52,936 bases of DNA from Escherichia phage JEP7: sequence record MT764207.1. One strand, given 5' to 3'. Made by a program: the position numbers and the translations under genes. The notes beneath the pieces are model-generated. The model was not told the DNA's origin, searched no databases, and was given only the letters and a program-made list of their open reading frames with translations. Position 1 is the stretch's first letter. Every line of letters begins with the position of its first letter. Positions 36,616 through 52,936 of this stretch are shown here, piece after piece.

Positions 36616-36620
36616 CACTT

Positions 36621-37505: not shown

Positions 37506-37735
37506 TAATGATAGTCCTCGTAAAGTGATTCTTCATCGCAGTACATACGATAAAGAGCTTCTTCGGCTTCTTCCAGGGTGTCAAACTCCTCGCCACAGAC
37601 GGAGTATTTTGTGGGTTCATCGAATGACTCGACGATGTGCCAGTCATGATGAATACCGTATGTCCACAAGTCGCAGTCATCTTTTGCAACAAGCTTACGT
37701 GTGGAACGAAATTGTGCTAGAGTATTGATGCTCAT
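37505..37735 (-). CDS. hypothetical protein
   Basis: ATG 37735 with AGGAGAG RBS (track ORF extends to 37774 across the promoter). Confidence 0.3.
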   Translation of the reverse strand: MSINTLAQFRSTRKLVAKDDCDLWTYGIHHDWHIVESFDEPTKYSVCGEEFDTLEEAEEALYRMYCDEESLYEDYH

Positions 37736-37762
37736 ATTCTCTCTCCTCATGTGTATAGAGGT

Positions 37763-37791
37763 ATTATACACCACTTACATGGGGTAAGTAC
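37763..37791 (-). promoter_or_regulatory. promoter (CTTACC ... GTGGTGTATAAT)
   Basis: minus-strand reading GTACTTACCCCATGTAAGTGGTGTATAAT. Confidence 0.4.
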
Positions 37792-37795
37792 ACTA

Positions 37796-38242
37796 CTATT
37801 TTACACTAACAGCTTGACACGATAGCCGTGACAAACCGAGGTTGGCTATGACACCATCGAGCAATACTCCTGCATGCTCTTCGTTGTATGCTTCTACCCA
37901 CAAAGGGATGGTCACGCCCTTCATATGGTCGCTGTATACGTTGAACGTAAACAATTGTTTGTGTGCTTTGTCAACACGCACAACAGTAAGATTACCATCC
38001 TCTCGTGGCGGAAGCTCAACGCCGTTATTACTCCAGAAGCTACGGAATTCGTCGCTGTTAACAATACCATGCACGACACGTTCTGTAAGTTCTGTTTTGA
38101 GGTCAGCACGTGCCTTTGTACTGATAAAGAAACGACAAGAGAAGAAGGCATTGACGTTTAGCACATCAACAGCATACACAACGTTATGCTCTTCAGTAGT
38201 TGGCGCTTTATAAACAATATATTTAGTCTTGAACAGGTCCAT
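37796..38242 (-). CDS. hypothetical protein
   Basis: ATG 38242 with GGAGAG RBS (track ORF starts at a GTG at 38278). Confidence 0.3.
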   Translation of the reverse strand: MDLFKTKYIVYKAPTTEEHNVVYAVDVLNVNAFFSCRFFISTKARADLKTELTERVVHGIVNSDEFRSFWSNNGVELPPREDGNLTVVRVDKAHKQLFTFNVYSDHMKGVTIPLWVEAYNEEHAGVLLDGVIANLGLSRLSCQAVSVK

Positions 38243-38290
38243 AGTACTCTCCAGGGAGGAAGACTGGCGGGCTTGCACCCGCCTAAGTTA

Positions 38291-39196
38291 TTACAGCAGT
38301 TCTGCTTTCAGCGCAGCGATACCATCGAGCAATGCTTTGATGTCCGGGTTAGATGCCGCCAGGTCAGCAACAACTGACTGACGACGACGTTCCAGCTCTT
38401 TCTCAACTTCCAGGTCGAGTCGTGCTGACGCTTCACGCAGTAAGTCTTCAACCTGCTGACGACGCTGATACTTGTTAAAGTCAGGCACATCAACCAGCCA
38501 TTTGAGAGTTGCAGTGTTATAGCCGGAAGTATTGGCTGCACTTACAGACACAACATCAACGAGCTTGGTACCGTTCAGCTCCGGATAATTAACATTGCGA
38601 ACGTCAACAACTGCTTTGTCACCTACACTTACTTTGCCGATGTACTTGTAAGTGTACACACGACCATTCGGTTCAAACTTAACACCAACAAACTTCAGTT
38701 TGTCGTCTGCAATAACCTCTTCCTCAACTTTGAAGTTGATTGCAGTATTCTTAACAGGTGCAGCCGCTTTGAGCTTAGCAACCATGTACTGTTCGGAATG
38801 AGACGGACGGCACAGACGGAAGACGTCTTCATTGTAGGTCAGCCAGTTACCGGTCTCATCCATGCATGCAATCTGATTAGTGCCATCCAGCGAACGAACG
38901 CCCGGGCGATTCTTCTCAACACGATACAGCTTACCTTCTTTCAGGTTAGCATAAGAACGGCGGGCGATACCCCAGTTGTGTTTTTCAGATTCATACTTAG
39001 CGAAACGGTCAACACTGAAGTTCTGCTTCAGGCCACGGTCGTCGATTACCCATAAGTTATCGTAAGCCCCGCAAAAAGAACCTAGGTTGGCATACACTTT
39101 GCCCTGCGTCAACAGGGAAGTGGTTCCCTCGTCAACACAGATAACAAAACCCAGAGCTTCGTGTGCTTTACCGCTGCGGTCAAATACTGTAGTCAT
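38291..39196 (-). CDS. hypothetical protein
   Basis: 301 aa; AAGGAAAC RBS; coiled-coil C-terminus. Confidence 0.3.
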   Translation of the reverse strand: MTTVFDRSGKAHEALGFVICVDEGTTSLLTQGKVYANLGSFCGAYDNLWVIDDRGLKQNFSVDRFAKYESEKHNWGIARRSYANLKEGKLYRVEKNRPGVRSLDGTNQIACMDETGNWLTYNEDVFRLCRPSHSEQYMVAKLKAAAPVKNTAINFKVEEEVIADDKLKFVGVKFEPNGRVYTYKYIGKVSVGDKAVVDVRNVNYPELNGTKLVDVVSVSAANTSGYNTATLKWLVDVPDFNKYQRRQQVEDLLREASARLDLEVEKELERRRQSVVADLAASNPDIKALLDGIAALKAELL

Positions 39197-39278
39197 TTCT
39201 TGTTTCCTTGTATACCAGTTTAATTGTATGCCAGAGTTATTCCCTGCGCATGTGCTTTATTGCTTAACCGTTAAAGAC

Positions 39279-39307
39279 ATTATATCATTAGCGAGTGGTG
39301 ACGTACA
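39279..39307 (-). promoter_or_regulatory. promoter with extended -10 (TGaTATAAT)
   Basis: minus-strand reading GTGTACGTCACCACTCGCTAATGATATAAT. Confidence 0.4.
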
Positions 39308-39310
39308 CAT

Positions 39311-41943: not shown

Positions 41944-44452
41944 TATTCTCGGTCTGAAATACTTTAAGCCAGAAGGGATTCCCCAAGTCTTCAAAGATAT
42001 GAAGCGCTGGGCTATCTTTGAGCTAACGTACGAAGACGAGACTCTTGAAGTTCAATCCAAACCGAAGAAACCTGCAAGAGCGCCATCAGGCCGTTCCTTC
42101 AGCACAACAGTGCCTGAAGAGTGGATGACTTTCGACGACGCCCTGACACGTTGTATTCGCAATCGTGAAATGAAGATTAAAGCTGTACAGGGTAATATCA
42201 CCTTTGTGCCGGCTTTGGTTGTTCCTCGCCAGTGGTACTTTGTTGACCTGGACAACCATGAAGATAACCCAGACATTGAAGCTACCCACAAGGCGATAAT
42301 TGAGGGGACCCGTGGTGCTTATGCCGAGACGTCAATCTCTGGCAAAGGGCAACACATTGCAATCCCTTTACCCTGGACTGCAGCAACATCTAAAGAGAAA
42401 GACGAACAGCTGGACATCAAAATCCAGAAGGCTGAGATGTTCCTGGTAATGACGGGTAACGTGTTGAGTGAGTTCAATGCTAATCCTGTTTCAGCCCGTG
42501 AATGGCATGCAGCAATTGAGAAGTTCTTTCTTGAATCAAGCGCACCTGACATTGATGTTGAGTTTGAGCAAGACGAAGACCGTGGCGAAGAGTATGACAA
42601 AGAGCTGTACGAACAGCTAGCCGACAATACTCGCTGGGCTTTAGAACACTATCTGAATGAGCATGCACCAGACGGTGTTGGTGTGAGTAACGACGGTTCT
42701 GAACGTTTAAGCCGTATCCTAAAAGACTTGCTTCGTGTAACCCGTAACTATGAAGTTACACAACGCATCTTTATGGCCAGCAAAGCTGCAGCATACGAAG
42801 GTCGTCGTCCTAGCCGACATAACTTGTCTGTTGATAAGTACCATCAGTGGTTCAGTCGTGTCGGTAAGACTGTGCTGAAAGAGATGCAACGTGATGGCTT
42901 ATTCGTTAAGACCAAGTTTGCTCTTGACATCAACAAAGAGTTAACCAAGAATTCTGGTGTCTCCCTGGCTGAGAATGTTGAGTTCAAAGTCAACGACGAT
43001 ATTCTGCCATCTGATGTATTCGTCAGGACGGCTCCGTCCGGGTTTAAACGGCTTATTGCTGAGATACAGGATAACATATCTCCTGCTAACAGGGTTAACG
43101 ACTATGCCATCGGCACAGCTCTTAACATCCTGAGCAACTGCGCTGGTCGCAAGTATGTTTGTCCAGTAGGCGGTCATGCTAACTTCCTGGTAACCAACAT
43201 CATTCTTGTGGGTGGTTCATCAATCGGTAAATCGTTGTATACTGAGATGTTCCCACAAATCCAGGCAAGCTTACCTGACACATCGCCTATCAGCCTTAAT
43301 CGTATTCCAAGGGAACAGACTTTTGCAACCAGGACGTTTGCTGAACTGATGTCCAACCCGTCATACCATTCAGTACAGTTGTTCTATCCTGAATTTGGTC
43401 TGGCTTTAGGTTCAGGCTTACGCATGAATCCTAACAACCCGGACAACTTTCAGAAAGCTCTGATGGACGCTTCAACCAAGCGTAAGGTTGGTGGTATACT
43501 GACAGGTATCAAACGTGCTAATGCTGACAATGATGTCAAGACAGTAAGCGAACCGTGTTACTCTATCCTGGGTGACTCCACTCAAGAGCTTATTCTTGAC
43601 AACACCCGGAAGCAAGACTTCTCAAGTGGCTTTTTGCCCCGCTTCCTGTTCATCCCGAACTATGAACGAGCGGAGTTTGCCAAACCTGAGAAGGTAGGAC
43701 GTCGCCAGCAGATTCGCCGTACTCAATTCTCCAAAGAGCTGATTGAGAAGCTGGAAGCAATCGCTTATGTGAATGCTATCCCGCCTAACGGTAAACTAAG
43801 GCATGACCCGATTCCTATTTACGACGAATCGGACGATGATGACTTCCTGTATGAGTACCAGTGCAATATTAATGACATGCGCAAGTATTACAGGGACAAC
43901 GAAGTAGCATCCGCCTTTGTGGGCCGAATGGGTGAGTATGTATTCAACATAGCAGCACTGATTGGCTTACTCGACAACTGGGATGCTCCTGTAATGACCA
44001 GGGACAACATCGAATGGGCTTACAAATATGTTCTTCGTTGTATAACCGCCTGGGTCAATAACACAAGCAGGATAGTCGCACCACCAACTACCAACGCCGA
44101 AGTAGTGGACGGCTTCCTAAAAGTCTACAGGGACATTTTGGCCCTTTACACCAAAAGAGGATGGTCTGGCATTGTCAAGCATTATCCCGAAGGTGTTGTA
44201 AGAAGTATCCGGGAAGAACACCTCCAGATGAATGGTTTAAGCATATATGCTATTCGTCAGTCTTTGAGCTGGTTTAAATCGAATTACGGTTTTAACATCA
44301 CAGCTAATAACAAAGTCATTGACGGTATGCTCCAGGATATGATTGACCAGGACTATTTAGCAGTACAAGTATATAAGCCCACAAGAGGCCGATCTGCTAA
44401 CATTTACTGCCTGACGGAGCGAGGATATGACACTGCTAAGAAGTTAAAATAA
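41918..44452 (+). CDS. DNA primase / SF3 helicase fusion (D5/P4-type)
   Basis: 844 aa; C-terminal Walker A GGSSIGKS in a helicase-like domain; N-terminal region with acidic DxD-like motifs (FVDLDNHED); replication-block position. Confidence 0.65.
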   Translation: MTMTSQPSDILGLKYFKPEGIPQVFKDMKRWAIFELTYEDETLEVQSKPKKPARAPSGRSFSTTVPEEWMTFDDALTRCIRNREMKIKAVQGNITFVPALVVPRQWYFVDLDNHEDNPDIEATHKAIIEGTRGAYAETSISGKGQHIAIPLPWTAATSKEKDEQLDIKIQKAEMFLVMTGNVLSEFNANPVSAREWHAAIEKFFLESSAPDIDVEFEQDEDRGEEYDKELYEQLADNTRWALEHYLNEHAPDGVGVSNDGSERLSRILKDLLRVTRNYEVTQRIFMASKAAAYEGRRPSRHNLSVDKYHQWFSRVGKTVLKEMQRDGLFVKTKFALDINKELTKNSGVSLAENVEFKVNDDILPSDVFVRTAPSGFKRLIAEIQDNISPANRVNDYAIGTALNILSNCAGRKYVCPVGGHANFLVTNIILVGGSSIGKSLYTEMFPQIQASLPDTSPISLNRIPREQTFATRTFAELMSNPSYHSVQLFYPEFGLALGSGLRMNPNNPDNFQKALMDASTKRKVGGILTGIKRANADNDVKTVSEPCYSILGDSTQELILDNTRKQDFSSGFLPRFLFIPNYERAEFAKPEKVGRRQQIRRTQFSKELIEKLEAIAYVNAIPPNGKLRHDPIPIYDESDDDDFLYEYQCNINDMRKYYRDNEVASAFVGRMGEYVFNIAALIGLLDNWDAPVMTRDNIEWAYKYVLRCITAWVNNTSRIVAPPTTNAEVVDGFLKVYRDILALYTKRGWSGIVKHYPEGVVRSIREEHLQMNGLSIYAIRQSLSWFKSNYGFNITANNKVIDGMLQDMIDQDYLAVQVYKPTRGRSANIYCLTERGYDTAKKLK

Positions 44453-44463
44453 GTAAGTAAATC

Positions 44464-44506
44464 AAGGGCTTGGGTAATTGTAAAAATCCTAAGCCCTTAT
44501 TTTTTA
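44464..44506 (+). terminator. rho-independent terminator
   Basis: AAGGGCTTGGG / CCTAAGCCCTT stem with 13-nt loop followed by ATTTTTTAAG directly after primase-helicase stop. Confidence 0.6.
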
Positions 44507-44599
44507 AGCTTATTTTACAAACTGATTAATATTTAAACTATAATTAAATATATGGGCTCTAAGAGTATGATTTTATTACTCTTTTACAAATCATAATAT

Positions 44600-44860
44600 A
44601 TGAGCTCCTTATAAAAGATTAAGGGGGTAAAAAAGGGGGATACAAGTACCGGATAAAGGGGGTATATATTTATTTATTATTATTATTATTATTATATATT
44701 ATTAATTATATTAGAAGTAATAAAAACAGCTACTTAGAGGCGTCTATATGTATGATCCGGTTTATCTCTTTATTAATATCAGAACCGGATGAAAAAAATT
44801 TACGCCGGCGAAAAAAATAAAAAAGCCGGATTGATAAATAAATCTGTAGACGTTTACACT
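44600..44860. repeat. AT-rich iteron/microsatellite region (candidate replication origin or regulatory hub)
   Basis: three AAGGGGG(T/A)A copies (44622, 44634, 44656); (TTA)7 microsatellite about 44676-44697; repeated CCGGAT/ATCCGG/GCCGGC motifs each followed by A-runs. Confidence 0.4.
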
Positions 44861-44882
44861 GTAAAAAAGATGTGCTACAATA
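44854..44882 (+). promoter_or_regulatory. sigma70-like promoter (TTTACA-N17-TACAAT)
   Basis: upstream of gene starting 44936. Confidence 0.45.
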
Positions 44883-44935
44883 TTTATCAATGTTGCTGAT
44901 TACCAAAACTTTGAATTGTATACGAGGCTGAATAA

Positions 44936-45367
44936 ATGGTTAATATAAGACAGAAAGGACAGAACTTTGAGCGTAAAATGGCTAAGAAGTTTAATAGCTC
45001 GTTCGGATTAACTGTTGAGCGCAATCTTCAACAGTCTATTAATGGCGGGGATGACTTGCTGGGTGTGCCGTTTTTCAGTGTTGAACTGAAGAAGCACAAT
45101 ACCAAGTCTATCGGAACATGGTGGAGACAGTGTGCGGCATCGGCAAAGGCTCAGAACAAGATGCCGGTACTGATATACGAACTACCAAGAAAACAGCCTA
45201 CCGTGGTGATGAATAAGGCTGATGTGATTGACTGTTTTCCAAGTGGCACGACTTTTAACGAGGCATCGAACCGCCTCTTTGTGGGTCTAGTAGAATTAAC
45301 ATGGGAACAATTTTGCCGGGTCTACAACTATTACGTTGCGCCCGGCACTCAATATCACGTCAATTAA
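44936..45367 (+). CDS. putative PD-(D/E)XK-type nuclease (Holliday-junction-resolvase-like)
   Basis: 143 aa; motif GGDDLLGVPFFSVELKKH consistent with D...ExK nuclease core; weak call. Confidence 0.3.
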   Translation: MVNIRQKGQNFERKMAKKFNSSFGLTVERNLQQSINGGDDLLGVPFFSVELKKHNTKSIGTWWRQCAASAKAQNKMPVLIYELPRKQPTVVMNKADVIDCFPSGTTFNEASNRLFVGLVELTWEQFCRVYNYYVAPGTQYHVN

Positions 45368-45549
45368 TCTTGTTTCAGCTCGTCACAAATGACACGCTGA
45401 TTTTTGGCAGGGATAATACCAAGATTCAGTAAGGTGTATGGACTATCGGCGGCACATTGTTCAACGGTAGTCCATTCAGTTTTGGATTCAACAATTTTGT
45501 AACTACAATCATGAGTAGCCACACATGTTGCCAGGATTAAGCCAATCAC
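45364..45549 (-). CDS. hypothetical small protein
   Basis: 61 aa, GTG start; hydrophobic N-terminus with LATC lipobox-like motif but no charged n-region. Confidence 0.25.
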   Translation of the reverse strand: MIGLILATCVATHDCSYKIVESKTEWTTVEQCAADSPYTLLNLGIIPAKNQRVICDELKQD

Positions 45550-45725
45550 AAGTAATCGCCTTCAACCAGGAACTCAAACAGTTGGTTGTAAACGTTGCAA
45601 CCTTTAGCGAAAGAGCTTTCAGCAGGTTTACCATCGCGGACGATCATCATATACTCACCGCCATGAATATCAACCCAATATTGCATGCCACCTTTGACCG
45701 TGTTACGTTGTAAGAATTTAAACAT
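45546..45725 (-). CDS. hypothetical small protein (not in ORF track)
   Basis: 59 codons; ATG overlaps upstream stop (TAATG); AAGGAG RBS; translation MFKFLQRNTVKGGMQYWVDIHGGEYMMIVRDGKPAESSFAKGCNVYNQLFEFLVEGDYL. Confidence 0.35.
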   Translation of the reverse strand: MFKFLQRNTVKGGMQYWVDIHGGEYMMIVRDGKPAESSFAKGCNVYNQLFEFLVEGDYL

Positions 45726-45970
45726 TATTTGCTCCTTATTCCAAGTTTATTCAATAACCAAATTGTCATGTCAACCCAGGTTAACGGTACAGTTTTCGGG
45801 GGTTGATAATTCCAGCAGCTTGCAGTTCTTTGTATTTCTGCTTGGCGCCGCTCCGCTTCGCGTAATACCGCATCGTCAGAAGTGCCGGCAGAAAAAAGAT
45901 CGGTAACACCAGATAAATCGCGTTGATTAACACGTCGAGCAATGTCATATAAATCATCCTTAGAAAACAT
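45725..45970 (-). CDS. hypothetical protein
   Basis: 81 aa; start overlaps the 3' end of the 41-codon ORF upstream. Confidence 0.3.
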   Translation of the reverse strand: MFSKDDLYDIARRVNQRDLSGVTDLFSAGTSDDAVLREAERRQAEIQRTASCWNYQPPKTVPLTWVDMTIWLLNKLGIRSK

Positions 45971-46085
45971 AAGCCAATACCATAAGAATTATCAGAAAGA
46001 TCCCAACCAGCTTCCTCATAGCCCGACCTTCAGCATATGCAGGATTCACAACAGAATACTCAACAACATGTTTACATCGGACCAT
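45960..46085 (-). CDS. hypothetical small membrane peptide (not in ORF track)
   Basis: 41 codons; GGAGG RBS 4 nt before ATG; C-terminal hydrophobic helix KLVGIFLIILMVLAYVF. Confidence 0.3.
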   Translation of the reverse strand: MVRCKHVVEYSVVNPAYAEGRAMRKLVGIFLIILMVLAYVF

Positions 46086-46197
46086 AAGGCCTCCACTTGT
46101 GGGTTAATTCAAGCATGAGGACTTTCATCAAATCCTCAGGATTGAATTAATTACCAGCTTTTAATCAAGCCCTGTCAGCGCCAGGACTTGACTAATA

Positions 46198-46398
46198 TCA
46201 CTCTATCATTACCTGAACTACTATTATACACTCTTTATTGAAGCGAGTAAACACTTTTCCACCATTAGTGCGTTTAGCCCCAGATTTTAGAGCTGACTGG
46301 CACCAGATATGCCACTCCTCAACTGTCAAGAATTTTTGCTCAGCTTTGGGTGGCAATCCATGGGCAAGGTCTACCGTCGTAAATTTGACTAGTGGCAT
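46198..46398 (-). CDS. hypothetical protein
   Basis: 66 aa from ATG 46398 (track ORF starts at a GTG at 46401). Confidence 0.3.
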   Translation of the reverse strand: MPLVKFTTVDLAHGLPPKAEQKFLTVEEWHIWCQSALKSGAKRTNGGKVFTRFNKECIIVVQVMIE

Positions 46399-46787
46399 CA
46401 CTTGACCTCAAACTTTGACTCGTCGTATTCCGGATCAGTCACGTCCCGGGTCGCACAATTTTTGATTGCTTCCCAGTAGCGTTGGGCATCATCACCATCG
46501 ACGTAAACCGTCCAGTGGCCATAACCACCTTCAAATCTGTCCCAGGCTTGTTCCCAGACTTTGCCATCTTCCAGCTTGTACCAAGTTGGACGACTGTCAA
46601 ACTCACGAATTGGATGGTACCCCATCAAGGGATTCATCAGGTCGATAATGTCTTCCCGACTAATCTCCTGGTTCTCCCACAACACCGTCATGAATTGCTC
46701 AAACTTGAAGGCGTTTGGCAGAACTTTGAGTACTTTACCGTCACAATATACGGTATAGGTGCCATCTTCGCATTTTGCACTGTACAT
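46398..46787 (-). CDS. hypothetical protein
   Basis: 129 aa from ATG 46787 with AGGAGAG RBS; preceded by conserved leader and dyad. Confidence 0.35.
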   Translation of the reverse strand: MYSAKCEDGTYTVYCDGKVLKVLPNAFKFEQFMTVLWENQEISREDIIDLMNPLMGYHPIREFDSRPTWYKLEDGKVWEQAWDRFEGGYGHWTVYVDGDDAQRYWEAIKNCATRDVTDPEYDESKFEVK

Positions 46788-46855
46788 GTTTCTCTCTCCT
46801 ATTGATATAATTTCAATCATGAACTATCACAACTTTGGATAGTTCATTGTTGAAA

Positions 46856-47029
46856 CTATACTAACTTTGTTGCGATCTGAATTGTCAGCCGGAAATCTTC
46901 CATCAAGTTATCAAACTCTTTGGAACCACCAACAGCATCAGATATTTGATCTTTCACAATTTGGGCATTTGATTCCAGTAATTCAATCAGGTGCGCCAAT
47001 TCGTCTTCAGTCAATTTCAAATCTTTCAT
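46856..47029 (-). CDS. small acidic helical protein, paralog family member A
   Basis: 57 aa from ATG 47029; N-terminus MKDLKLTEDELAHLIELLE similar to the products of 47289-47447 and 48144-48317. Confidence 0.35.
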   Translation of the reverse strand: MKDLKLTEDELAHLIELLESNAQIVKDQISDAVGGSKEFDNLMEDFRLTIQIATKLV

Positions 47030-47283
47030 AATGCATCCACCCAAGCCATAACTTTTGCCAGTCTTACAACGTCTTCATGGTCCCGCTCGCCATCAGAAAA
47101 TTCGCTGGCGATGATATCCATAATTGACGCCAGATTCATGTTGATGATGTAGGCGTGTTGGCGCACTTCATCAATTCCTGAATCTATCACCAGTTCCGCA
47201 AATTCTTGTGAACCTTCATCCCATTCAGCCCAATACTGCTCAGCATAAAAGTCCAGTTCTTTTTTCATCTCAATATCAGTCAT
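47026..47283 (-). CDS. highly acidic small protein
   Basis: 85 aa, many D/E and aromatic residues; AGGAG RBS. Confidence 0.35.
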   Translation of the reverse strand: MTDIEMKKELDFYAEQYWAEWDEGSQEFAELVIDSGIDEVRQHAYIINMNLASIMDIIASEFSDGERDHEDVVRLAKVMAWVDAL

Positions 47284-47288
47284 TTTGA

Positions 47289-47447
47289 TTACTCCTCAGA
47301 ACCTGAAAATTTGTCATCAATGGACTCAACAATATAATCAAGAGTTGAAGTGTGAGAACTATCAGAAAAAGTGCCCATCTTCTCCAGCTCAATCATCATA
47401 TCCCGTAAAGCCATTGCCTGGTCTTTGGTCAGTTTAATTTTAAGCAT
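47289..47447 (-). CDS. small acidic helical protein, paralog family member B
   Basis: 52 aa from ATG 47447 with CAGGAGAG RBS; MLKIKLTKDQAMALRDMMIELE. Confidence 0.35.
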   Translation of the reverse strand: MLKIKLTKDQAMALRDMMIELEKMGTFSDSSHTSTLDYIVESIDDKFSGSEE

Positions 47448-47511
47448 GTTTCTCTCCTGTTGATTGTGAATAATTTCAATTGATGGCACTACTTGAGTGC
47501 CATCTCAAAAA

Positions 47512-48048
47512 TTACTCTTCAGTTTCTTGGGTTTCAGGTTTTTGACCAGTTACTGACTTGCCATCAGTCACTTTACCAGATTTTACATCATTCCGGTAGT
47601 ATGACATATATGACTGGATAACTCTTTTGGCTTTGATGTCATCCGCCTCCATCCCACAGGCTTTCATGGCATCAACTAGGGCCAGTTTGGAATCTTCCTT
47701 ATCCATCAGGTTATAATCCTTAAACACCAGATAACAAGTGTCCTTGGTTGATGGACCAGATGACTTCCGGGTCCCGCCATTGGAAGATCTTGATGCCACA
47801 ACTTTGACCTCTTCAACTTCCAGTTGGTTCAGTTCATCAAACAATGCCTTGACCAACACTTCTTTGGAGTCCTTGACAGTTGCAGAACTTTCATCATTAA
47901 GGGACTTAATCATCTTAATGATCTGGTTATTGGCAAAGTACTGAAGACTATCCATCTGCACTACAATAGTCCCAAGACTTTCAGTAGTCAGACCAGATTT
48001 TACAGACTCAACAGAAAAGGCGGAAGTCAGGTAAACATAGTTAGTCAT
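47512..48048 (-). CDS. hypothetical protein
   Basis: 178 aa from ATG 48048 with GAGGA RBS; Ser/Lys/Glu-rich. Confidence 0.35.
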   Translation of the reverse strand: MTNYVYLTSAFSVESVKSGLTTESLGTIVVQMDSLQYFANNQIIKMIKSLNDESSATVKDSKEVLVKALFDELNQLEVEEVKVVASRSSNGGTRKSSGPSTKDTCYLVFKDYNLMDKEDSKLALVDAMKACGMEADDIKAKRVIQSYMSYYRNDVKSGKVTDGKSVTGQKPETQETEE

Positions 48049-48143
48049 TGATGTATCCTCATTGATAGAATTTTTGATAAGTGTCAATCCTTGACAAGTA
48101 AGTCCAATCATGAGGACTTTTACCAAGTCCCCATTGTTGGAAA

Positions 48144-48317
48144 TTACTTCAACTTATCCAGAATTGATTGGAGTAACTTGACCCTCACTTCCTGGTCTTT
48201 GACATCCCTTCCACTCTCCCTGTCATATTCCAACAGGTCACTTTCCATAAATAAAGTAGTGTCCAATTGGTCAACCAATAATTCCAGTTCTTCTTGGGAC
48301 AATTCTAAAACTTTCAT
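48144..48317 (-). CDS. small acidic helical protein, paralog family member C
   Basis: 57 aa from ATG 48317 with AGGAGT RBS; MKVLELSQEELELLVDQLD. Confidence 0.35.
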   Translation of the reverse strand: MKVLELSQEELELLVDQLDTTLFMESDLLEYDRESGRDVKDQEVRVKLLQSILDKLK

Positions 48318-48321
48318 CTTA

Positions 48322-48468
48322 TTACTCCTGATATTTAATAACTTGGGATTGGATAAAGTCAACACAATCTTCCACATCCATTGACTCAAAGTCTGGAACT
48401 GGACCATTGTTTATATTGACACACCAAAGCCCTTCATTGGTATCATACCAAAGTGTGTAGTTGTCCAT
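48322..48468 (-). CDS. hypothetical small protein
   Basis: 48 aa from ATG 48468 with GAGGTGA RBS; first gene of leftward early block. Confidence 0.3.
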   Translation of the reverse strand: MDNYTLWYDTNEGLWCVNINNGPVPDFESMDVEDCVDFIQSQVIKYQE

Positions 48469-48834
48469 CTTAATAGTCACCTCTTGTACTAGTTTCCAGT
48501 TGTGACTACTGTTACCAATAGTCACTGGTTGAAACTATTACTAGTGTTACTATCAACAAGAAACATGTTACCAGATTGTTAAAGAGCAAAAGGTACCATT
48601 GACATCTACCAGATGTACCTGTTGACTGGTTAAGTACTACCTACCCAAATTAAACCATACTAATACCCTCCAGACCAGTTGACTGGTCACTTGGTCATCA
48701 CATTCAATAAATATATAATAGTCCAATCCCTCTTGATTGTACACCTTATATTTGTAAGTTTATGCAAGTTTTTAGAAATGATAATCACTTGCGATTGAGA
48801 GTGGTTCTCATATGCAATTGATATAGTTTCACAT

Positions 48835-48914
48835 GTAATTACTCACTTCAAAATGGTCGGCGGGGGTTATAGTAACGTAGGGGTGCCACTTAAAGGAGCC
48901 GGCGAAATTATTTC
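48835..48914. repeat. GC-rich direct repeat, copy 1
   Basis: TAATTACTCACTTCAAAATGG-TCGGCGGGGGT...GGGTGCCAC...AGGAGCCGGCGAAATT; imperfect copy of 49010-49090. Confidence 0.5.
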
Positions 48915-49009
48915 TAAAAATATAATTTCAATCTGAATTATAGACGCTTTGTACTATAACGGCCGAAGTAGTTCACCCGGTAATTGTACCAATCATAATA
49001 GTTACCAGA

Positions 49010-49090
49010 GTAATCATTTCAATCGAAATAGGTGCGGCGGGGGTAATTTCGCAAGGGTGCTACCCGCCAGGAGCCAGCGGAATTTTTTTA
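49010..49090. repeat. GC-rich direct repeat, copy 2
   Basis: TAATCATTTCAATCGAAATAGG-TGCGGCGGGGGT...GGGTGCTAC...AGGAGCCAGCGGAATT followed by a T-run. Confidence 0.5.
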
Positions 49091-49319
49091 TTTTTTGGTA
49101 TTTTTGCCTTATCAGGACCAATCATCATCAGATTGATACAATAGGAGCTAACCTTTTGCCTAACACAATAATAAGTGAAGCCCCTCTAAAATTTTTTTTT
49201 ATATTTTTCGGAAATTGTGTAGACACTCACTAAAAAGTGGTGTACTTTCTCTCCTCCACGCGCTATCATTAATGTGAATCATCAAACGGCCTCACGGTCT
49301 CCTACTTGTGGGTAACATT

Positions 49320-49805
49320 ATGAAAATTGTTCAATTAGAGCCATATCCGCCTCAATTGGCTATCGTTTGCAGCGAAAAAGAGCACGAAGAGCTCCAAAAA
49401 CTGATGGATTTGCCTGATTTTGGCAACTGGAATGACCGAGAAACGCGTACTGCATCTACCTTTACGTTCTCTCGCGTTAACTATCCGTACCTGTTAATCG
49501 TCGTCGAGCTGTACCACCCGGACGACCTGAAGTACAACACCATTTCCCACGAAGGCATTCACGTAATGTCGTCGCTGATGAACTATGTCGGCCTTAAATA
49601 CGACCCAGAAAACGATGAATGGTACGCATATCAGCATGATTTCATCGTAAATGCCATTTGTAAGGCCCATGACGAGTACATTGAGCGCCAAAAAACGCCA
49701 AAAACTAAGCCAAAAATCGAAACAGGCAACCATCCTGTGATACTGCCACAAGACGTTATGAACTCGCTTTTGACTGACACTACTGGGGACTTTTTAGGTG
49801 ATTGA
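49320..49805 (+). CDS. HExxH-motif protein (putative zinc metallopeptidase-like)
   Basis: about 161 aa from ATG 49320 (track starts at a GTG at 49308); HEGIH motif (NTISHEGIHVMSSLM). Confidence 0.3.
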   Translation: MKIVQLEPYPPQLAIVCSEKEHEELQKLMDLPDFGNWNDRETRTASTFTFSRVNYPYLLIVVELYHPDDLKYNTISHEGIHVMSSLMNYVGLKYDPENDEWYAYQHDFIVNAICKAHDEYIERQKTPKTKPKIETGNHPVILPQDVMNSLLTDTTGDFLGD

Positions 49806-50307
49806 AATACTCCGTAAGTATTTTCGCTATGAGCCAGACACAGGCTTATTGTACAGAATACGACAGGCTAAAACAGGTAAACGAGTCGATTTGAGCCAGC
49901 CTGTAGGCACGGAACATAGCGGTTATCTGTTTTGCAGTGTACCAGAAGGCATTCGTACAAAGCCTGTGCACGTAATCTGCTATGCTTTACAAACTGGCGA
50001 ACTACCTGAAGTAGTTGACCATAAAGATGGTAACGGGCTTAACAACAAATGGTACAACCTTCGTAACGGTACTCAAACGCAGAACCGGTATAACTCAAAA
50101 GTCAAATCAAGTAACACAACAGGCGTAAAAGGCTTGTTTGAGTACGCACCAAAAGGTCGTAAACCTCTTTGGAAAGCCAGCATTAAAGTAGATGGAGTCA
50201 ATCATCAGAAGTATTTCCCTTATACTGATAACGGTAGGCTGGAAGCTATTGAGTGGCTTGACGAACAAAGACATCAACATGGCGAATTCGCCAACAAAGG
50301 AAATTAA
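49798..50307 (+). CDS. HNH homing endonuclease with AP2-like DNA-binding domain
   Basis: 169 aa; HNH core VVDHKDGNGLNNKWYNLRNGTQTQN; C-terminal GVKGLFEYAPKGRKPLWKASIKVDGVNHQKYFPYTDNGRLEAIEW resembles AP2 domain. Confidence 0.75.
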   Translation: MIEILRKYFRYEPDTGLLYRIRQAKTGKRVDLSQPVGTEHSGYLFCSVPEGIRTKPVHVICYALQTGELPEVVDHKDGNGLNNKWYNLRNGTQTQNRYNSKVKSSNTTGVKGLFEYAPKGRKPLWKASIKVDGVNHQKYFPYTDNGRLEAIEWLDEQRHQHGEFANKGN

Positions 50308-50308
50308 T

Positions 50309-50983
50309 GTGATAAACCTAATCTTCGCAATGGGCCAAAATGGGGAATTCGGGTTATCTCCGGAGTTTATGAAGCATCAGGTTGACTCGTGCAAGACCAT
50401 GGAAGAGGTTCGTGCGCTTCCTAAGTCTGGTCTGCCCTGGAAATGTCCGTCAGACATGCTCTTTTTCAGGACTATGACTAATTCAGTTGCGACAGAACCA
50501 GGCTATAATGCGTATCAGCAACTACGTGGACAGTTCCCAAGTGACCAGTTGCGAAACATGATAGCAGATGTAACGGTAAAAATGGTCGGACATAGTGTAC
50601 TGTTAGCCGGTCGTAACACGTATATGACTATGAGTCTGCCTATGTCAGCCCACAGAATACTGCTGCCGGTATCTCGCCAGATTATGGCTTCAGAAGGCTA
50701 CAATAATTTGGGTGAGATGGCAGCAGACCTTGAATCCAGAGGTACTGACGTCTGGATTGTAGGCGGTGCCGAGTTGATACTTTCGGCCCTTGAAGAGCAT
50801 GCAAAAGACTTACTCCGTATCGACAACATGTTTATCAGTACGATCAAGCAATCAGGTCCAAGTGATATTTTAATGGATCGTAGCAAATTAATGATGTACA
50901 TTGATAGCGACTTCACTTATAATGATGAATATGTTGATAACAAACAAGTTCTGATACAACGGTACAGGAGTTTACACGAATGA
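50309..50983 (+). CDS. dihydrofolate reductase
   Basis: GTG 50309 with AAAGGA RBS (in-frame ATG also at 50279); DHFR-like order of motifs: INLIFAMGQNGEFG, LPW, DMLFF, VLLAGRNTY, VWIVGGAELI. Confidence 0.75.
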   Translation: MINLIFAMGQNGEFGLSPEFMKHQVDSCKTMEEVRALPKSGLPWKCPSDMLFFRTMTNSVATEPGYNAYQQLRGQFPSDQLRNMIADVTVKMVGHSVLLAGRNTYMTMSLPMSAHRILLPVSRQIMASEGYNNLGEMAADLESRGTDVWIVGGAELILSALEEHAKDLLRIDNMFISTIKQSGPSDILMDRSKLMMYIDSDFTYNDEYVDNKQVLIQRYRSLHE

Positions 50984-51486
50984 ACATCATAATCGAGGGT
51001 CCCGATAATGCTGGTAAAAGTACACTTATTGAGTTCCTTAAATCTCATACTGGCCGCAATGTTATTCATAATACTGTTGATAAAGACCCCGAATCGGTCA
51101 TGGCTAAACAGGCCAAAGAAAACGCGTTGGAAGGCAATTGCATTTATGACCGTAGCGCTGTTATATCTGAGTATATCTATTGTCTGGTTCTTCAACGTAC
51201 GCCTGTCATCAATATTAATGTATCACATGTAGCAGATATGTGTGACAACGCCATCGTTATCTTTTGTATGCCGCCTGTTGAAAAGGTACTGGCAACTACA
51301 AAAGACGAAATGCCTGGTGTTGTGGAAAATCTTGAGGCGTTATACAATCAGTATGACAACCTCATTGACGAGCTGGTTATGATGAGTAAGCAGTTCTTCA
51401 TTTACGACTGGACTGTTGAAGAAGACGGTCCTGAAGCAGTTCTCGAATACATCAACGAACGTATTAATAAGGAGTGGAACAAATGA
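50980..51486 (+). CDS. P-loop deoxynucleoside monophosphate kinase (thymidylate-kinase-like)
   Basis: 168 aa; N-terminal Walker A IIIEGPDNAGKST; CAGGAG RBS; adjacent to DHFR. Confidence 0.55.
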   Translation: MNIIIEGPDNAGKSTLIEFLKSHTGRNVIHNTVDKDPESVMAKQAKENALEGNCIYDRSAVISEYIYCLVLQRTPVININVSHVADMCDNAIVIFCMPPVEKVLATTKDEMPGVVENLEALYNQYDNLIDELVMMSKQFFIYDWTVEEDGPEAVLEYINERINKEWNK

Positions 51487-52175
51487 GCCCAGTATACAAT
51501 AGCACAGTCACGCTGTCAGCAACCGTAGGAGACGTCAACAAGACTGTTACTGTGGGTTCAACTAACCCGAACCTGTCAGGTGACGACCTGCTGCGCCTGG
51601 CCAAACGTGCTCTTGAAGATAACGAAGTGACTGGTACTGAAGGCGTCAGCATTGAAATTAACGTCGAAGGATGTCCACACAGCATCAGTATTGCGACTTC
51701 TGGCGATGAAATTGAAAAGTTCAACGATGAGCTGGAATATCGTACTGGTGAGATGTTCAGCAGTGCTCTAAACTGGTACTTGTGCAAGGCCTCAAACTAC
51801 GCTGGCGCTCCTATGTCAGACCGTATGTTAGCTGATATGTCAGCTCGCGAAATTGCTAAAGGCTGGGCGCATGTACAGATGCTGCAGGAGCATATCTGCA
51901 AGCTGGAAAGCTGCAATAAAGATGCGTCTGAGCTTATCACTGCCTATAAACGGCAGATTACCGACCTGCAGCAACTGATGGGCAAGCGTGCTGAAGAATA
52001 TGAGGCTGAGATTCGTAGCCTTAACGGTACAGCTGTTGCTAATAACCGTGCTTTCAGCGAAGAGCGTAAAGCGCTTATTGCCCAGCGTGACGCTGAAAAA
52101 CGTCGTGCAGACGACCTGGCAGATCGTCTCAACTTTATCCGTAAGCATATGGATGCTATGGAAGGGGTAATCTGA
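51483..52175 (+). CDS. hypothetical protein
   Basis: 230 aa from ATG 51483 (overlaps kinase stop, GGAGTGG RBS); C-terminal coiled coil. Confidence 0.3.
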   Translation: MSPVYNSTVTLSATVGDVNKTVTVGSTNPNLSGDDLLRLAKRALEDNEVTGTEGVSIEINVEGCPHSISIATSGDEIEKFNDELEYRTGEMFSSALNWYLCKASNYAGAPMSDRMLADMSAREIAKGWAHVQMLQEHICKLESCNKDASELITAYKRQITDLQQLMGKRAEEYEAEIRSLNGTAVANNRAFSEERKALIAQRDAEKRRADDLADRLNFIRKHMDAMEGVI

Positions 52176-52465
52176 TGGACTTGTTCGATATGGTCGAACA
52201 TCCTGAAGTAAACGGCTTAGCCTCCGCCAAGCCGTTTAGCTGGGATGAGTTCGTAGCAGGCAAACCTGCTGTAACCCACAACGGGCAGATTGCATATTAC
52301 GGAGGCCATAGCGAACATCCGATGTGCACTCACCTGTACAACGCTATAACAACCATAACCGATGAAAACGTTATTAAATACGGAAAAGAGGTAATGCCTT
52401 TTCTTGTAGATGAGCGCGGTTACTTCGAAGGTAAATGGTTCCCGTTTCTGGTAGAAATGGCCTAA
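52175..52465 (+). CDS. hypothetical protein
   Basis: 96 aa; ATG overlaps upstream stop. Confidence 0.3.
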   Translation: MDLFDMVEHPEVNGLASAKPFSWDEFVAGKPAVTHNGQIAYYGGHSEHPMCTHLYNAITTITDENVIKYGKEVMPFLVDERGYFEGKWFPFLVEMA

Positions 52466-52581
52466 AAACCGGATAAATATAAAGGCGTCTAAGCTAGTTC
52501 TTCATCTATATAAGCTACTTATTCGCCTTTCTACTGTAGACTTTCTCATCATCTCTCTAGACACTTCATTTTTATATTCTG

Positions 52582-52610
52582 TTTACTTACTTCGCGTAAC
52601 TCGTTATAAT
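52582..52610 (+). promoter_or_regulatory. sigma70-like promoter (TTTACT-N17-TATAAT)
   Basis: -35 52582-52587, -10 52605-52610, upstream of 52643 gene. Confidence 0.5.
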
Positions 52611-52642
52611 CCCGACTATCCGGATTAACGAGGACGACACCC

Positions 52643-52933
52643 ATGGCAAAACCGAAAAAAACCCGTGAGGCAACAGAAGAACTGTTGGCCACGATGCGAC
52701 GTATCCAGCTGGACCCGTTGGAAGTTATGCAACGGGCTATCATACTTGCTGAACGTGAAGACGACTACAAAGCAATGATGGATGGTGCACTGGGCGTTAT
52801 GCCGTACATGTATCCTAAGCTGAAAGAATCCGTTGTCAAAGCAGACATCGACCAGAACCTGTCTGGTAATGGTGTCAACCTGAACATTACAATAGGCGAC
52901 CAGAAAGTGGTAGATACTACTGGGGAAGAGTAA
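52643..52933 (+). CDS. terminase small subunit (putative)
   Basis: 96 aa with basic N-terminus (MAKPKKTREATEE); last gene of window, so directly upstream of terL if the genome is circularly permuted; GAGGA RBS. Confidence 0.4.
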   Translation: MAKPKKTREATEELLATMRRIQLDPLEVMQRAIILAEREDDYKAMMDGALGVMPYMYPKLKESVVKADIDQNLSGNGVNLNITIGDQKVVDTTGEE

Positions 52934-52936
52934 TAA

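What the first reader, a model, noticed from the sequence alone, without database searches (positions are those of the whole stretch)
46788..47505. Duplicated leader cassette (dyad plus ATTGAAATTAT...AGGAGAGA) in front of two unrelated early genes
Upstream of the genes starting at 46787 and 47447 the minus strand reads [perfect dyad]-ATTGAAATTAT(ATCAAT/TCACAATCAA)-(C)AGGAGAGA(G)AAAC-ATG. The dyads differ in sequence (TGAACTATC-N9-GATAGTTCA at 46821-46847; GATGGCAC-N7-GTGCCATC at about 47482-47504) but occupy the same position. An ATTGAAAT core recurs at about 48918 and 49018. This suggests an RNA processing or translational control element reused across the early transcript.
Basis: seen in the sequence. 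Interest (0 to 1): 0.45.

Follow-up and report, generated by a model that had tools for sequence, protein, structure and literature searches.

The report
Repeated RNA hairpins between early genes
The "dyad plus ATTGAAATTAT" cassette is one two-tier RNA hairpin that sits between genes of this phage's first-expressed operon, and it most likely marks where the host enzyme RNase III cuts the long early transcript, as in phage T7.

Summary
The window is a Rosemountvirus genome (vB_EcoM_PiR-like). ATTGAAATTAT is not a free-standing motif. It is the 3' arm of a lower stem that pairs with (G)UAAUUU / AUAGUUUCAA around the upstream stop codon.

The element is therefore one two-tier hairpin: a lower stem of 8-11 bp, a small internal loop (usually 5'-CA/5'-GA), an upper stem of 9-11 bp and a loop of 4-9 nt. 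A CA-rich spacer, a Shine-Dalgarno sequence and the ATG follow.

Six such hairpins fill the leader and every intercistronic gap over 25 nt of the minus-strand operon 48541-46101. None occurs elsewhere in the window. Nine relatives from several genera carry the same family, with strong compensatory change. The structure holds only on the mRNA strand.

Geometry, position, stop codons inside the lower stem and a frequent U-A/U·G pair near the loop match the RNase III sites of T7 early mRNA. That is my best explanation (about 0.55), and it is untested experimentally.

The cassettes also bound gene modules that differ between phages, and two phages show a hybrid junction. The ATTGAAAT copies at 48922 and 49013 are not family members.

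The parts
48486..48541 (-). H0, the leader hairpin before the first gene (ATG 48468). Its layout is GUAAUAGUUUC / AACCA / GUGACUAUUG / GUAA / CAGUAGUCAC / AACUG / GAAACUAGUAC. An extended outer stem (48565-48462) pairs with the Shine-Dalgarno sequence AAGAGGUGA.
   Evidence: Fold of -34.2 kcal/mol, z = -4.51. Covariance-model hit of 35.9 bits on the minus strand against 10 on the plus strand. Orthologues carry compensatory changes, for example BP63 GUGGCUAUUG/CAGUAGCCAC and fHy-Eco03 GAGACUAUUAG/UUAGUAGUCUC.
48096..48149 (-). H1, in the gap between genes 48144-48317 and 47512-48048. Its layout is AAGUAAUUUCCAA / CA / AUGGGGACUU / GGUAA / AAGUCCUCAU / GA / UUGGACUUACUU. The upstream stop codon UAA lies in the 5' arm of the lower stem.
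   Evidence: Covariance-model hit of 69.6 bits on the minus strand against 23.2 on the plus strand.
47468..47517 (-). The upstream stop codon UAA lies in the 5' arm, and ATTGAAATTAT supplies the 3' side of the internal loop and the lower stem.
   Evidence: Fold of -22.5 kcal/mol, z = -3.75. The partner arm covaries in orthologues: S144 AGUAAUUUC/GAAAUUAUU and fHy-Eco03 AAUAUC/GAUAUU. The covariance-model hit is weak (14.4 bits, E = 0.43) because the model was built from the CA/GA subtype.
47445..47467 (-). Spacer and translation start of cassette A: ACAAUCAAC, then Shine-Dalgarno AGGAGAGA (47459-47452), AAAC, and ATG (47447).
   Evidence: Sequence read; gene annotated in the PiR record.
46801..46865 (-). 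The upstream stop codon UAG lies in the 5' arm.
   Evidence: Fold of -25.8 kcal/mol, z = -5.22. Repeat I3. Covariance-model hit of 37.7 bits on the minus strand against 13.8 on the plus strand. SOI901 has a compensatory change next to the internal loop, UUGAAC...GUUCAA.
46785..46800 (-). Shine-Dalgarno AGGAGAGAG (46800-46792), AAAC, and ATG (46787) of cassette B.
   Evidence: In AV127 and emiel this segment is joined directly to the HA hairpin.
46156..46202 (-). H3', a degenerate family member: a 14-bp uninterrupted stem UUAGUCAAGUCCUG / CAGGGCUUGAUUAA. In SE13, S144 and SE4 the orthologue is a canonical CA/GA hairpin and is followed by an extra gene that is absent here.
46101..46155 (-). H4, before the gene at 46085. 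Its layout is UUAAUUCAAUC / C / UGAGGAUUU / GAUGA / AAGUCCUCA / U / GCUUGAAUUAA. The internal loop is altered relative to relatives, which have CA/GA. The top of the upper stem reads U-A, U·G, A-U, as in T7 R1.1.
   Evidence: Fold. Covariance-model hit of 52 bits on the minus strand against 35.9 on the plus strand..

Best explanation
The cassettes belong to a family of intercistronic two-tier RNA hairpins in the polycistronic early mRNA. That mRNA is read by host RNA polymerase leftward from the promoter region at 48.5-49.1 kb, and the operon lies inside the phage's direct terminal repeat. I propose that they are processing signals for host RNase III, of the kind found in T7 early mRNA.

The proposed mechanism is as follows. 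The roughly 20-24 bp quasi-continuous helix binds RNase III. The internal loop, about one helical turn below the terminal loop, sets the cut and probably restricts it to the 3' strand. Using the T7 R1.1 spacing (13 nt 3' of the loop), the predicted cut is ...UCAUGAU|UGAAAUUAU in HB, near 46816/46815, and ...CAUCAAUU|GAAAUUAUUC in HA, near 47478/47477, each give or take 2 nt.

The upstream message would then end in a protective 3' hairpin. The downstream message would start about 20 nt before its Shine-Dalgarno sequence with an unstructured, CA-rich leader.

Shown here: the structure, its restriction to the sense strand, covariation, confinement to this operon, and the resemblance to T7 sites. 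Inferred: early timing, transcription as one unit, and cleavage by RNase III.

A secondary consequence is supported by comparison between genomes. The repeated hairpin-plus-Shine-Dalgarno cassettes provide homology for recombination that adds or removes gene modules.
For: Structure. All five regions fold far better than shuffles, with z from -3.75 to -5.40 and 0 of 200 shuffles as stable.

Distribution. Every gap over 25 nt in the operon holds a hairpin. Gaps among the middle genes (minus strand, about 34-40 kb) instead carry sigma-70-like TGGTATAAT-type promoter sequences.

Family. Nine relatives show the same architecture in nearly every gap: Rosemountvirus, Loughboroughvirus, fHy-Eco03/KE26 and Erwinia phage SOI901. 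Among 35 unique hairpins there are 23 distinct upper-stem sequences, with a modal length of 10 bp, and CA/GA loops in 19.

Covariation. In 20 distinct sense-strand sequences, 96.3% of cells are paired against 29-51% when the partner is slid. There are 60 double-change cells against at most 7, and 9 of 18 pairs show compensatory change.

RNA rather than DNA. There are 48 G·U pairs against 1 A·C. The sense strand is more stable in 33 of 35 hairpins, with mean -21.6 against -17.3 kcal/mol. Covariance-model scores are always higher on the minus strand.

Specificity. With filters off over the whole window and both strands, the only model hits below E = 0.01 lie at 46.1-48.5 kb.

Likeness to T7. T7 R0.3, R0.5, R1, R1.1 and R1.3 fold as an AU-rich lower stem, an internal loop, a 9-13 bp upper stem and a 3-5 nt loop. 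The stop codons of T7 genes 0.4 and 0.7 lie in the 5' arms of the lower stems.

RNase III determinants (PMC1540722). Substrates span about two helical turns. Internal loops restrict cleavage to one strand and leave a protective 3' hairpin. At least 11 bp are needed between the cut and the loop. The canonical distal box is UA/UG. In this family, position 8 from the internal loop is U·G in 17 of 35 hairpins and position 9 is U-A in 28 of 33. H0 and H4 read U-A, U·G, A-U exactly as R1.1 does.

Other enzymes. There is no phage RNA polymerase, and no early protein has a recognisable domain.
Against: No transcript-end or cleavage data exist for any phage of this group. Early timing and single-unit transcription are inferred.

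Only 2 of the 5 canonical hairpins in the window (H0, H4) carry the UA/UG pair. H1 and HA have C-G there.

The near-invariant CA/GA loop and the conserved UUCAA...UUGAA junction are more sequence-specific than E. coli RNase III is known to need. They could instead reflect another reader, or simply common descent of the copies.

A 2x2 loop may not restrict cleavage to one strand.

I could not place the proximal-box positions exactly, so antideterminants were not scored.

The sequences are related to one another, so the covariation counts overstate the number of independent events. The G·U against A·C count uses pairs taken from sense-strand folds.

The T7 site coordinates come from my memory of Dunn and Studier 1983. 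They are corroborated only by the folds and by the GCAA tetraloop and UA/UG description of R1.1 in PMC1540722.
Confidence: 0.55

Rival explanations
1. The hairpins are binding sites for a specific protein, either one of the uncharacterised early phage proteins or a host factor other than RNase III. That protein would recognise the conserved CA/GA internal loop and its flanking A-U pairs, and would control translation, stability or antitermination of the early genes. Alternatively, they act only as passive barriers to 3' exonucleases, without any endonucleolytic cut.
For: The internal loop (CA/GA in 19 of 35) and its flanks UUCAA/UUGAA and AUG/CAU are far more conserved than the rest of the helix. 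All operon proteins are of unknown function. The extended stem of H0 pairs with the Shine-Dalgarno sequence. RNase III can itself bind some bulge-helix-bulge substrates without cutting them (PMC1540722).
Against: No candidate RNA-binding domain was found in the operon proteins. The loop varies in some members with the geometry unchanged (UGA/AAUU, U/U, a 5x5 loop in H0, and a closed loop in H3'). A constant upper stem of about 10 bp on a helix of about two turns is what a ruler enzyme such as RNase III needs, and a simple stabiliser does not. T7 sites also share loop sequence (CUC/UAUGA) without needing a second factor.
Confidence: 0.2
2. The primary role is at the DNA level. The repeated cassettes would be linker sequences for homologous recombination that shuffle early-gene modules between phages, as PeSLs do in T4-type phages, and the hairpin would be incidental or a target for recombination proteins.
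For: AV127 and emiel lack the three genes between HA and HB. Their junction is identical to HA through ...CAACAGGAGAGA and to HB from GAGAGAGAAACATG onward. SE13, S144 and SE4 carry an extra gene between H3' and H4. PeSL precedent: PMC2839356.
Against: The structure is strand-asymmetric: 48 G·U against 1 A·C, and the sense strand is more stable in 33 of 35. Compensatory changes preserve pairing, which recombination homology does not require. The crossover mapped in the Shine-Dalgarno-to-ATG segment, not in the hairpin. I therefore read recombination as a by-product, not a rival function.
Confidence: 0.08
3. The cassettes are internal sigma-70 promoters and/or intrinsic terminators (true PeSL-type units), so that each gene block is its own transcription unit.
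For: TTGAAA within ATTGAAATTAT resembles a -35 hexamer. In the promoter region the 49013 copy does form TTGAAA-16-TATTAT, matching 10 of 12 positions.
Against: No promoter-like site was called in either cassette, and no -10 element lies 16-18 nt after TTGAAA there. No U-tract follows any of the hairpins, and none was called as a terminator. This phage's real inter-gene promoters look different, of the TGGTATAAT type.
Confidence: 0.04

Closest known systems
RNase III processing signals of phage T7 (and T3) early mRNA: R0.3, R0.5, R1, R1.1, R1.3
   Same: Both are intercistronic elements in a long early transcript made by host RNA polymerase. Both have an AU-rich lower stem, an internal loop, an upper stem and a terminal loop: 9-13 bp and 3-5 nt in T7, 9-11 bp and 4-9 nt here. 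Upstream stop codons lie in the 5' arm of the lower stem (T7 genes 0.4 and 0.7). The pairs U-A, U·G, A-U sit below the loop in R1.1 as in H0 and H4. The loop and top of fHy-Eco03 (GGCAUC-UGCG-GGUGCC) resemble T7 R1 (GUCAUC-UGCG-GGUGGC). Several paralogous copies share loop sequence.
   Different: There is no sequence homology: the covariance model finds nothing in T7. The internal loop here is usually a symmetric 2x2 CA/GA, against the asymmetric 3x5 CUC/UAUGA of T7. Lower stems are longer and more regular. The operon lies in a terminal repeat of a myovirus that has no RNA polymerase of its own. Cleavage is not demonstrated.
PeSLs (promoter-early stem-loops) of T4-type phages (Arbiol et al. 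2010, PMC2839356)
   Same: [quoted passage not shown] Both contain a stem-loop, flank small genes of unknown function, and bound modules that are present or absent between relatives, with chimeric junctions.
   Different: PeSLs are defined by a strong sigma-70 promoter plus a stem-loop that terminates transcription, often GGGG...CCCC. The cassettes here have neither a promoter nor a U-tract or G/C-rich stem.
Intercistronic stabiliser hairpins and RNase III-regulated leaders (for example the lambda N leader and sib). This comparison rests on my own knowledge.
   Same: Both are hairpins at the 3' ends of upstream cistrons. The leader hairpin H0 occludes the Shine-Dalgarno sequence, as the lambda N-leader structure does, where an RNase III cut relieves the block.
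   Different: Here the elements form a stereotyped multi-copy family with a fixed two-tier geometry. No functional data exist.

Membership tests
E. coli-type RNase III processing signal (T7 R1.1 class) | A double helix of about two turns (about 20 bp), which may be interrupted | tested here: met
   A lower stem of 8-11 bp, two non-canonical positions and an upper stem of 9-11 bp give 19-27 pairs per hairpin. The requirement is taken from PMC1540722.
E. coli-type RNase III processing signal (T7 R1.1 class) | An internal loop or bulge about one helical turn (11-13 nt) from the terminal loop, which sets the cut and restricts it to one strand | tested here: met
   The internal loop lies 8-12 bp (mode 10) below the loop in 35 of 35 unique hairpins. 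The T7 sites folded in the same way show the same layout. The 11-bp minimum and the 28-nt product come from PMC1540722.
E. coli-type RNase III processing signal (T7 R1.1 class) | Distal box with the canonical UA/UG pairs | tested here: inconclusive
   Position 8 is U·G in 17 of 35 hairpins and position 9 is U-A in 28 of 33. In the window, H0 and H4 have both pairs, while H1 and HA have C-G at position 8. The exact numbering of the boxes could not be read because the figures are not held.
E. coli-type RNase III processing signal (T7 R1.1 class) | No G-C or C-G antideterminants at proximal-box positions 2 and 4 | tested here: inconclusive
   The pairs flanking the internal loop are mostly A-U: lower-stem position 1 is A-U in 24 of 35, and upper-stem position 1 is A-U in 18 of 35 and G-C in 13 of 35. 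The register of the proximal box relative to the predicted cut is uncertain.
E. coli-type RNase III processing signal (T7 R1.1 class) | Cleavage by RNase III in vivo or in vitro | not testable with these tools
   No transcript-end data or cleavage assays were found for this phage group.
PeSL (T4-type promoter-early stem-loop cassette) | A strong sigma-70 -35/-10 promoter within the cassette | tested here: not met
   No promoter-like site was called in 46788-46865 or 47448-47517 on the minus strand, and manual reading finds no -10 element 16-18 nt after TTGAAA.
PeSL (T4-type promoter-early stem-loop cassette) | The stem-loop acts as a terminator or attenuator | tested here: not met
   No U-tract follows any of the hairpins, and none was called in the terminator scan. 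Function itself was not assayed.
PeSL (T4-type promoter-early stem-loop cassette) | Cassettes flank variable gene modules, and chimeric cassettes occur at deletion or insertion junctions | tested here: met
   Hybrid HA/HB junction in AV127 and emiel; an extra gene between H3' and H4 in SE13, S144 and SE4.
Rho-independent (intrinsic) terminator | A G+C-rich hairpin directly followed by a run of U | tested here: not met
   The 3' flanks are UCACAAUCAAC, AUCAAUAGG, CCCACAAGUGG and GUCAAGGAUUG. The terminator scan is negative at these sites.
Any curated Rfam family | A match to an Rfam covariance model | tested here: not met
   A cmscan of 44400-49400 at E up to 5 returned only a sub-threshold microRNA look-alike (27.4 bits against a gathering threshold of 85) and a lncRNA fragment.
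N4-type hairpin promoters for a virion RNA polymerase | A 5-7 bp stem with a 3-nt loop in DNA, and a giant virion RNA polymerase gene in the genome | tested here: not met
   The stems are 19-27 bp with loops of 4-9 nt. The largest ORFs encode 985, 844, 710 and 655 aa (tail, primase/helicase, tail, DNA polymerase) and none is a phage RNA polymerase. The published S144 analysis also found none.

The most novel reading that the evidence does not exclude
The near-invariant CA/GA internal loop with its UUCAA...UUGAA and AUG...CAU flanks may be the recognition site of a dedicated, still unidentified phage factor, such as one of the domain-less proteins encoded in the terminal repeat. In that reading, each hairpin-plus-Shine-Dalgarno unit works as a portable "expression and exchange" cassette. 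It would process or regulate its own gene and also serve as the crossover point for swapping host-takeover genes among Rosemountvirus, Loughboroughvirus and related Erwinia and Klebsiella phages. That would be an integron-like gene-cassette system built on an RNA element rather than on promoters.
Probability: 0.12. Interest if true: 0.65.

Novelty: new member of a known kind. Interest (0 to 1): 0.42.

Why it matters
If the hairpins are RNase III sites, T7-style processing of early mRNA extends to an unrelated group of myoviruses now used for Salmonella and E. coli biocontrol. It would define the true mRNA units of their uncharacterised host-takeover genes, which lie in the terminal repeat. It would also supply 35 natural substrate variants for studying how RNase III selects its sites, and would predict that phage growth depends on the host rnc gene. 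Separately, the hybrid junctions show how small early genes are gained and lost at cassette boundaries. For annotation, these gaps should not be called promoters, as software did for S144.

Tried and rejected
- Sigma-70 promoter within the cassettes. TTGAAA could serve as a -35 hexamer, but no -10 element lies at the right spacing and the scan is negative.
- Intrinsic terminator. No hairpin is followed by a U-tract.
- Rfam. No family matches.
- The ATTGAAAT copies at 48922 and 49013 as further cassettes. The covariance model finds nothing there. The local dyad GAAAUUAU/AUAAUUUC folds at -4.5 kcal/mol with z of about 0. The 49013 copy is not conserved outside Rosemountvirus.
- A plain MAFFT alignment of the hairpins misaligned the variable upper stems. 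I replaced it with a covariance-model alignment.
- A scan of IMG/VR with CAACAATGA-N16-32-TCATGATTG. Only the ZCSE2, SE13 and SE4 genomes carry several copies. The 34 single-match loci fail the covariance model, apart from two marginal hits at E of about 0.06-0.08.
- Pfam and PHROGs on ten operon proteins, looking for an RNase or a double-stranded-RNA-binding domain. Nothing was found.
- Literature on Rosemountvirus, S144 and fHy-Eco03. None mentions hairpins, RNase III or transcript mapping.
- A literature search for the T7 site coordinates was unproductive, and the held T7 records do not list RNase III sites.
- A first genome-wide hairpin scan with loose criteria was swamped by G+C-rich coding regions. 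I replaced it with folding of each gap and the covariance-model scan.
Full report
**What the window is.** Megablast places the region in Rosemountvirus, a group of myoviruses of Salmonella and E. coli with genomes of about 52 kb. The closest frame of reference is Escherichia phage vB_EcoM_PiR, which has the same length and coordinates and about 97% identity. The finding lies in a run of 12-13 small genes on the minus strand, from 48468 down to 45364. These genes are read leftward from the divergent non-coding region 48469-49307.

The record of phage vB_SalM_Sz carries an exact 4263-bp direct terminal repeat with no mismatches. That repeat corresponds to window 44807-49075. The relative fHy-Eco03 has a 3699-bp terminal repeat covering the same genes, determined with PhageTerm. 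The operon therefore sits wholly inside the terminal repeat, which is the position of first-expressed genes in phages such as T5. "Early" is an inference from this position and from gene content, because no transcript data exist.

**Checking the observation.** The 11-mer ATTGAAATTAT occurs three times exactly and once with a single mismatch, all on the minus strand within 2.2 kb. With up to one mismatch there are 6 matches against 1.33 expected, and 0 of 100 shuffles reach 6.

**The real anatomy.** The repeat finder showed that the dyad of cassette B extends to 23 nt per arm and includes the 11-mer (I3). Folding the five non-coding stretches of the operon as RNA gave one dominant hairpin in each, and two in the 112-nt gap. 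Energies run from -22.5 to -46.6 kcal/mol, z from -3.75 to -5.40, and 0 of 200 shuffles fold as well.

Each hairpin has two tiers:
- a lower stem of 8-11 bp, whose 5' arm usually contains the stop codon of the upstream gene (GAGUAAUUU, AAGUAAUUUCC, UUAGUAUAGUUUCAA);
- a small internal loop;
- a terminal loop of 4-9 nt.

ATTGAAATTAT is the 3' side of the internal loop plus the 3' arm of the lower stem. After the hairpin come 10-50 nt of unstructured, CA-rich RNA, then the Shine-Dalgarno sequence and the ATG.

The six hairpins are H0 (48541-48486), H1 (48149-48096), HA (47517-47468), HB (46865-46801), H3' (46202-46156) and H4 (46155-46101). They occupy the leader and every gap over 25 nt of the operon. 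Gaps among the middle genes (minus strand, about 34-40 kb) instead carry sigma-70-like promoter sequences of the type GTGT(A/T)TAC...TGGTATAAT, and none of these hairpins.

**A conserved family.** I fetched the same operon from nine relatives: emhyr, BP63, SE13 and AV127 (Rosemountvirus); S144 and SE4 (Loughboroughvirus); fHy-Eco03 and KE26; and Erwinia phage SOI901. Folding every gap gave the same object almost everywhere.

Parsed into parts, the 35 unique hairpins have these properties:
- 23 different upper-stem sequences, for example AUGAGGACUU, AUGACAACUU, AUGAACUAUC, AUGCGGUAU, GUGACAAUUAU, AAGUCUCGG, GAUGGCACU and CAGACCUCU;
- an almost constant upper-stem length, with a mode of 10 bp;
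- an internal loop of 5'-CA over 5'-GA in 19 of them, with variants UGA/AAUU (HA), a 5x5 loop in H0, and U/U.

The window has AAUUUU/GAAAUU, S144 has AAUUUC/GAAAUU and fHy-Eco03 has AAUAUC/GAUAUU.

I built a covariance model from nine members and searched the whole window on both strands with filters off. The only hits below E = 0.01 were in 46.1-48.5 kb, and minus-strand scores were always higher: 69.6 against 23.2, 52 against 35.9, 37.7 against 13.8, and 35.9 against 10 bits.

On the 20 distinct sense-strand sequences aligned by the model, 96.3% of cells pair, against 29-51% when the partner is slid by 1-3 columns. There are 60 cells with changes on both sides, against at most 7, and 9 of 18 pairs show compensatory change. 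The alignment is fitted to the model and the sequences are related, so these numbers overstate independence. The contrast with the slid controls is nonetheless large.

**RNA, not DNA.** Within the stems there are 48 G·U pairs and 1 A·C. The sense RNA is more stable than the antisense in 33 of 35 hairpins, with means of -21.6 and -17.3 kcal/mol. One caveat applies: the pairs were taken from sense-strand folds.

**What the hairpins resemble.** They are not intrinsic terminators, because no U-tract follows any of them. They are not sigma-70 promoters, not an Rfam family, and not N4-type hairpin promoters, since the genome encodes no phage RNA polymerase.

Their geometry is that of the RNase III processing signals of T7 early mRNA. 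I folded T7 at the five early sites. The coordinates came from my memory of Dunn and Studier 1983. R1.1 is corroborated by its GCAA tetraloop and UA/UG distal box as described in PMC1540722. Each site shows an AU-rich lower stem, an internal loop (CUC over UAUGA), an upper stem of 9-13 bp and a loop of 3-5 nt. The stop codons of T7 genes 0.4 and 0.7 lie inside the 5' arms of the lower stems.

Pertzev and Nicholson (PMC1540722) state that:
- E. coli RNase III substrates typically span two helical turns;
- internal loops restrict cleavage to one phosphodiester and leave a protective 3' hairpin;
- 11 bp between the cut and the loop is the minimum;
- the canonical distal box is UA/UG.

In this family, position 8 from the internal loop is U·G in 17 of 35 hairpins and position 9 is U-A in 28 of 33. 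H0 and H4 read U-A, U·G, A-U exactly as T7 R1.1 does. One fHy-Eco03 hairpin top (GGCAUC-UGCG-GGUGCC) nearly repeats that of T7 R1 (GUCAUC-UGCG-GGUGGC).

There is no overall sequence homology to T7, since the model finds nothing there. The resemblance is therefore one of design.

**Proposed mechanism.** Host RNA polymerase makes one long leftward transcript, and host RNase III docks on each helix of about 22 bp. Using the R1.1 spacing (13 nt 3' of the loop), it would cut at or just below the 3' side of the internal loop: ...UCAUGAU|UGAAAUUAU in HB and ...CAUCAAUU|GAAAUUAUUC in HA, give or take 2 nt. Each upstream message would keep a 3' hairpin, and each downstream message would begin shortly before its ribosome-binding site. 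For H0, whose outer stem pairs with the Shine-Dalgarno sequence, cutting could also unmask translation of the first gene.

The structure, its strand specificity, covariation, distribution and likeness to T7 are shown here. Transcription as one unit, early timing and cleavage are inferred. I put this explanation at about 0.55.

**Rival explanations.** The strict conservation of CA/GA and its flanks is more than RNase III is known to require, and all operon proteins are of unknown function. A dedicated RNA-binding factor, or a purely stabilising role, therefore remains possible (about 0.2).

A DNA-level role as a recombination linker is real as a consequence. AV127 and emiel lack the three genes between HA and HB, and their junction is HA through ...CAACAGGAGAGA and HB from GAGAGAGAAACATG onward. 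SE13, S144 and SE4 have an extra gene between H3' and H4. This parallels the PeSL cassettes of T4-type phages (PMC2839356). The defining PeSL features, a strong promoter and a terminator stem-loop, were tested here and not met. Recombination alone also does not explain the strand-specific compensatory pairing.

**The other ATTGAAAT copies.** The copy at 48932-48922 lies 4 nt downstream of a -10-like GTCTATAAT that is conserved across genera. The copy at 49023-49013 supplies the TTGAAA of a TTGAAA-16-TATTAT promoter-like site and is not conserved outside Rosemountvirus. Neither copy is a two-tier hairpin.

**Novelty and verdict.** No paper on these phages mentions the hairpins, and the S144 annotation labels some of these gaps as predicted promoters. 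The family appears confined to this phage clade. If it is what it looks like, it is a new member of a known kind: phage early-mRNA RNase III sites. Its added features are location in a terminal repeat and marking of module boundaries.

Noticed in passing
window 44807-49075: This stretch corresponds to the exact 4263-bp direct terminal repeat of phage vB_SalM_Sz (0 mismatches between the two copies) and to the 3699-bp repeat of fHy-Eco03. The window record holds only one copy, so the physical genome ends probably lie near 44807 and 49075.
   Followed up: partly
window 49075-48985 and 48905-48810 (minus strand): Two G+C-rich direct repeat units of about 95 nt (..TTCGCYGGCTCC..GGCACCC..CCCCCGCCG.ACC.ATTT..) lie directly inside the right end of the terminal repeat and are conserved across genera in alignment A4. 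Their function is unknown; it could relate to packaging, the genome terminus or promoters.
   Followed up: no
window 48942-48922 (minus strand): A GTCTA[T/C][A/G]ATT element resembling a -10 hexamer is conserved in all eight aligned phages and lies 4 nt upstream of an ATTGAAATTAT copy. It has no recognisable -35. A transcript starting there would begin with almost the same AUUGAAAUUAU as the predicted RNase III-processed mRNAs.
   Followed up: partly
window 48620-48571 (minus strand): In the operon leader, a 6-bp stem AGGUAC...GUACCU is followed by UUUUGCUCUUU. Loughboroughvirus carries the compensatory AGACAC...GUGUCU. This may be an attenuator, but the fold is weak (-13 kcal/mol, z = 0.17).
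   Followed up: partly
window 48096-48078 (minus strand): A small second hairpin GUCAA-GGA-UUGAC lies directly after H1. BP63 and AV127 carry GCCAG-GGA-UUGGC at the same place, a change that keeps the pairing.
   Followed up: no
window about 34501-39310 (minus strand); also 3014-3190, 4886-4989 and 24593-24694 (plus strand): Intergenic gaps of the middle and late regions carry a recurring promoter-like sequence: GTGT(A/T)TAC..N..TGG(N)TATAAT on the minus strand and CTGG(C)TATATAAT on the plus strand. These differ from the early-operon gaps.
   Followed up: no
window, whole length: The window matches the deposited vB_EcoM_PiR record position for position, with no indels found in the two stretches compared base for base (1-45000 and 43000-52936). 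It differs by about 3% substitutions concentrated in patches, for example 372 of 9937 in the last 10 kb. One difference converts a G·U pair in the HB lower stem to A-U.
   Followed up: partly
window 3058-3125 (plus strand); 52195-52253 (both strands): Two very stable intergenic hairpins, -38.8 and about -26 to -30 kcal/mol, do not belong to the family. The second folds on both strands.
   Followed up: no
L004 (S144) 2065-2083 and 3699-3739: The published S144 annotation places software-predicted promoters on two of the hairpin-bearing gaps. The sequences there are family hairpins without a -10 element.
   Followed up: partly
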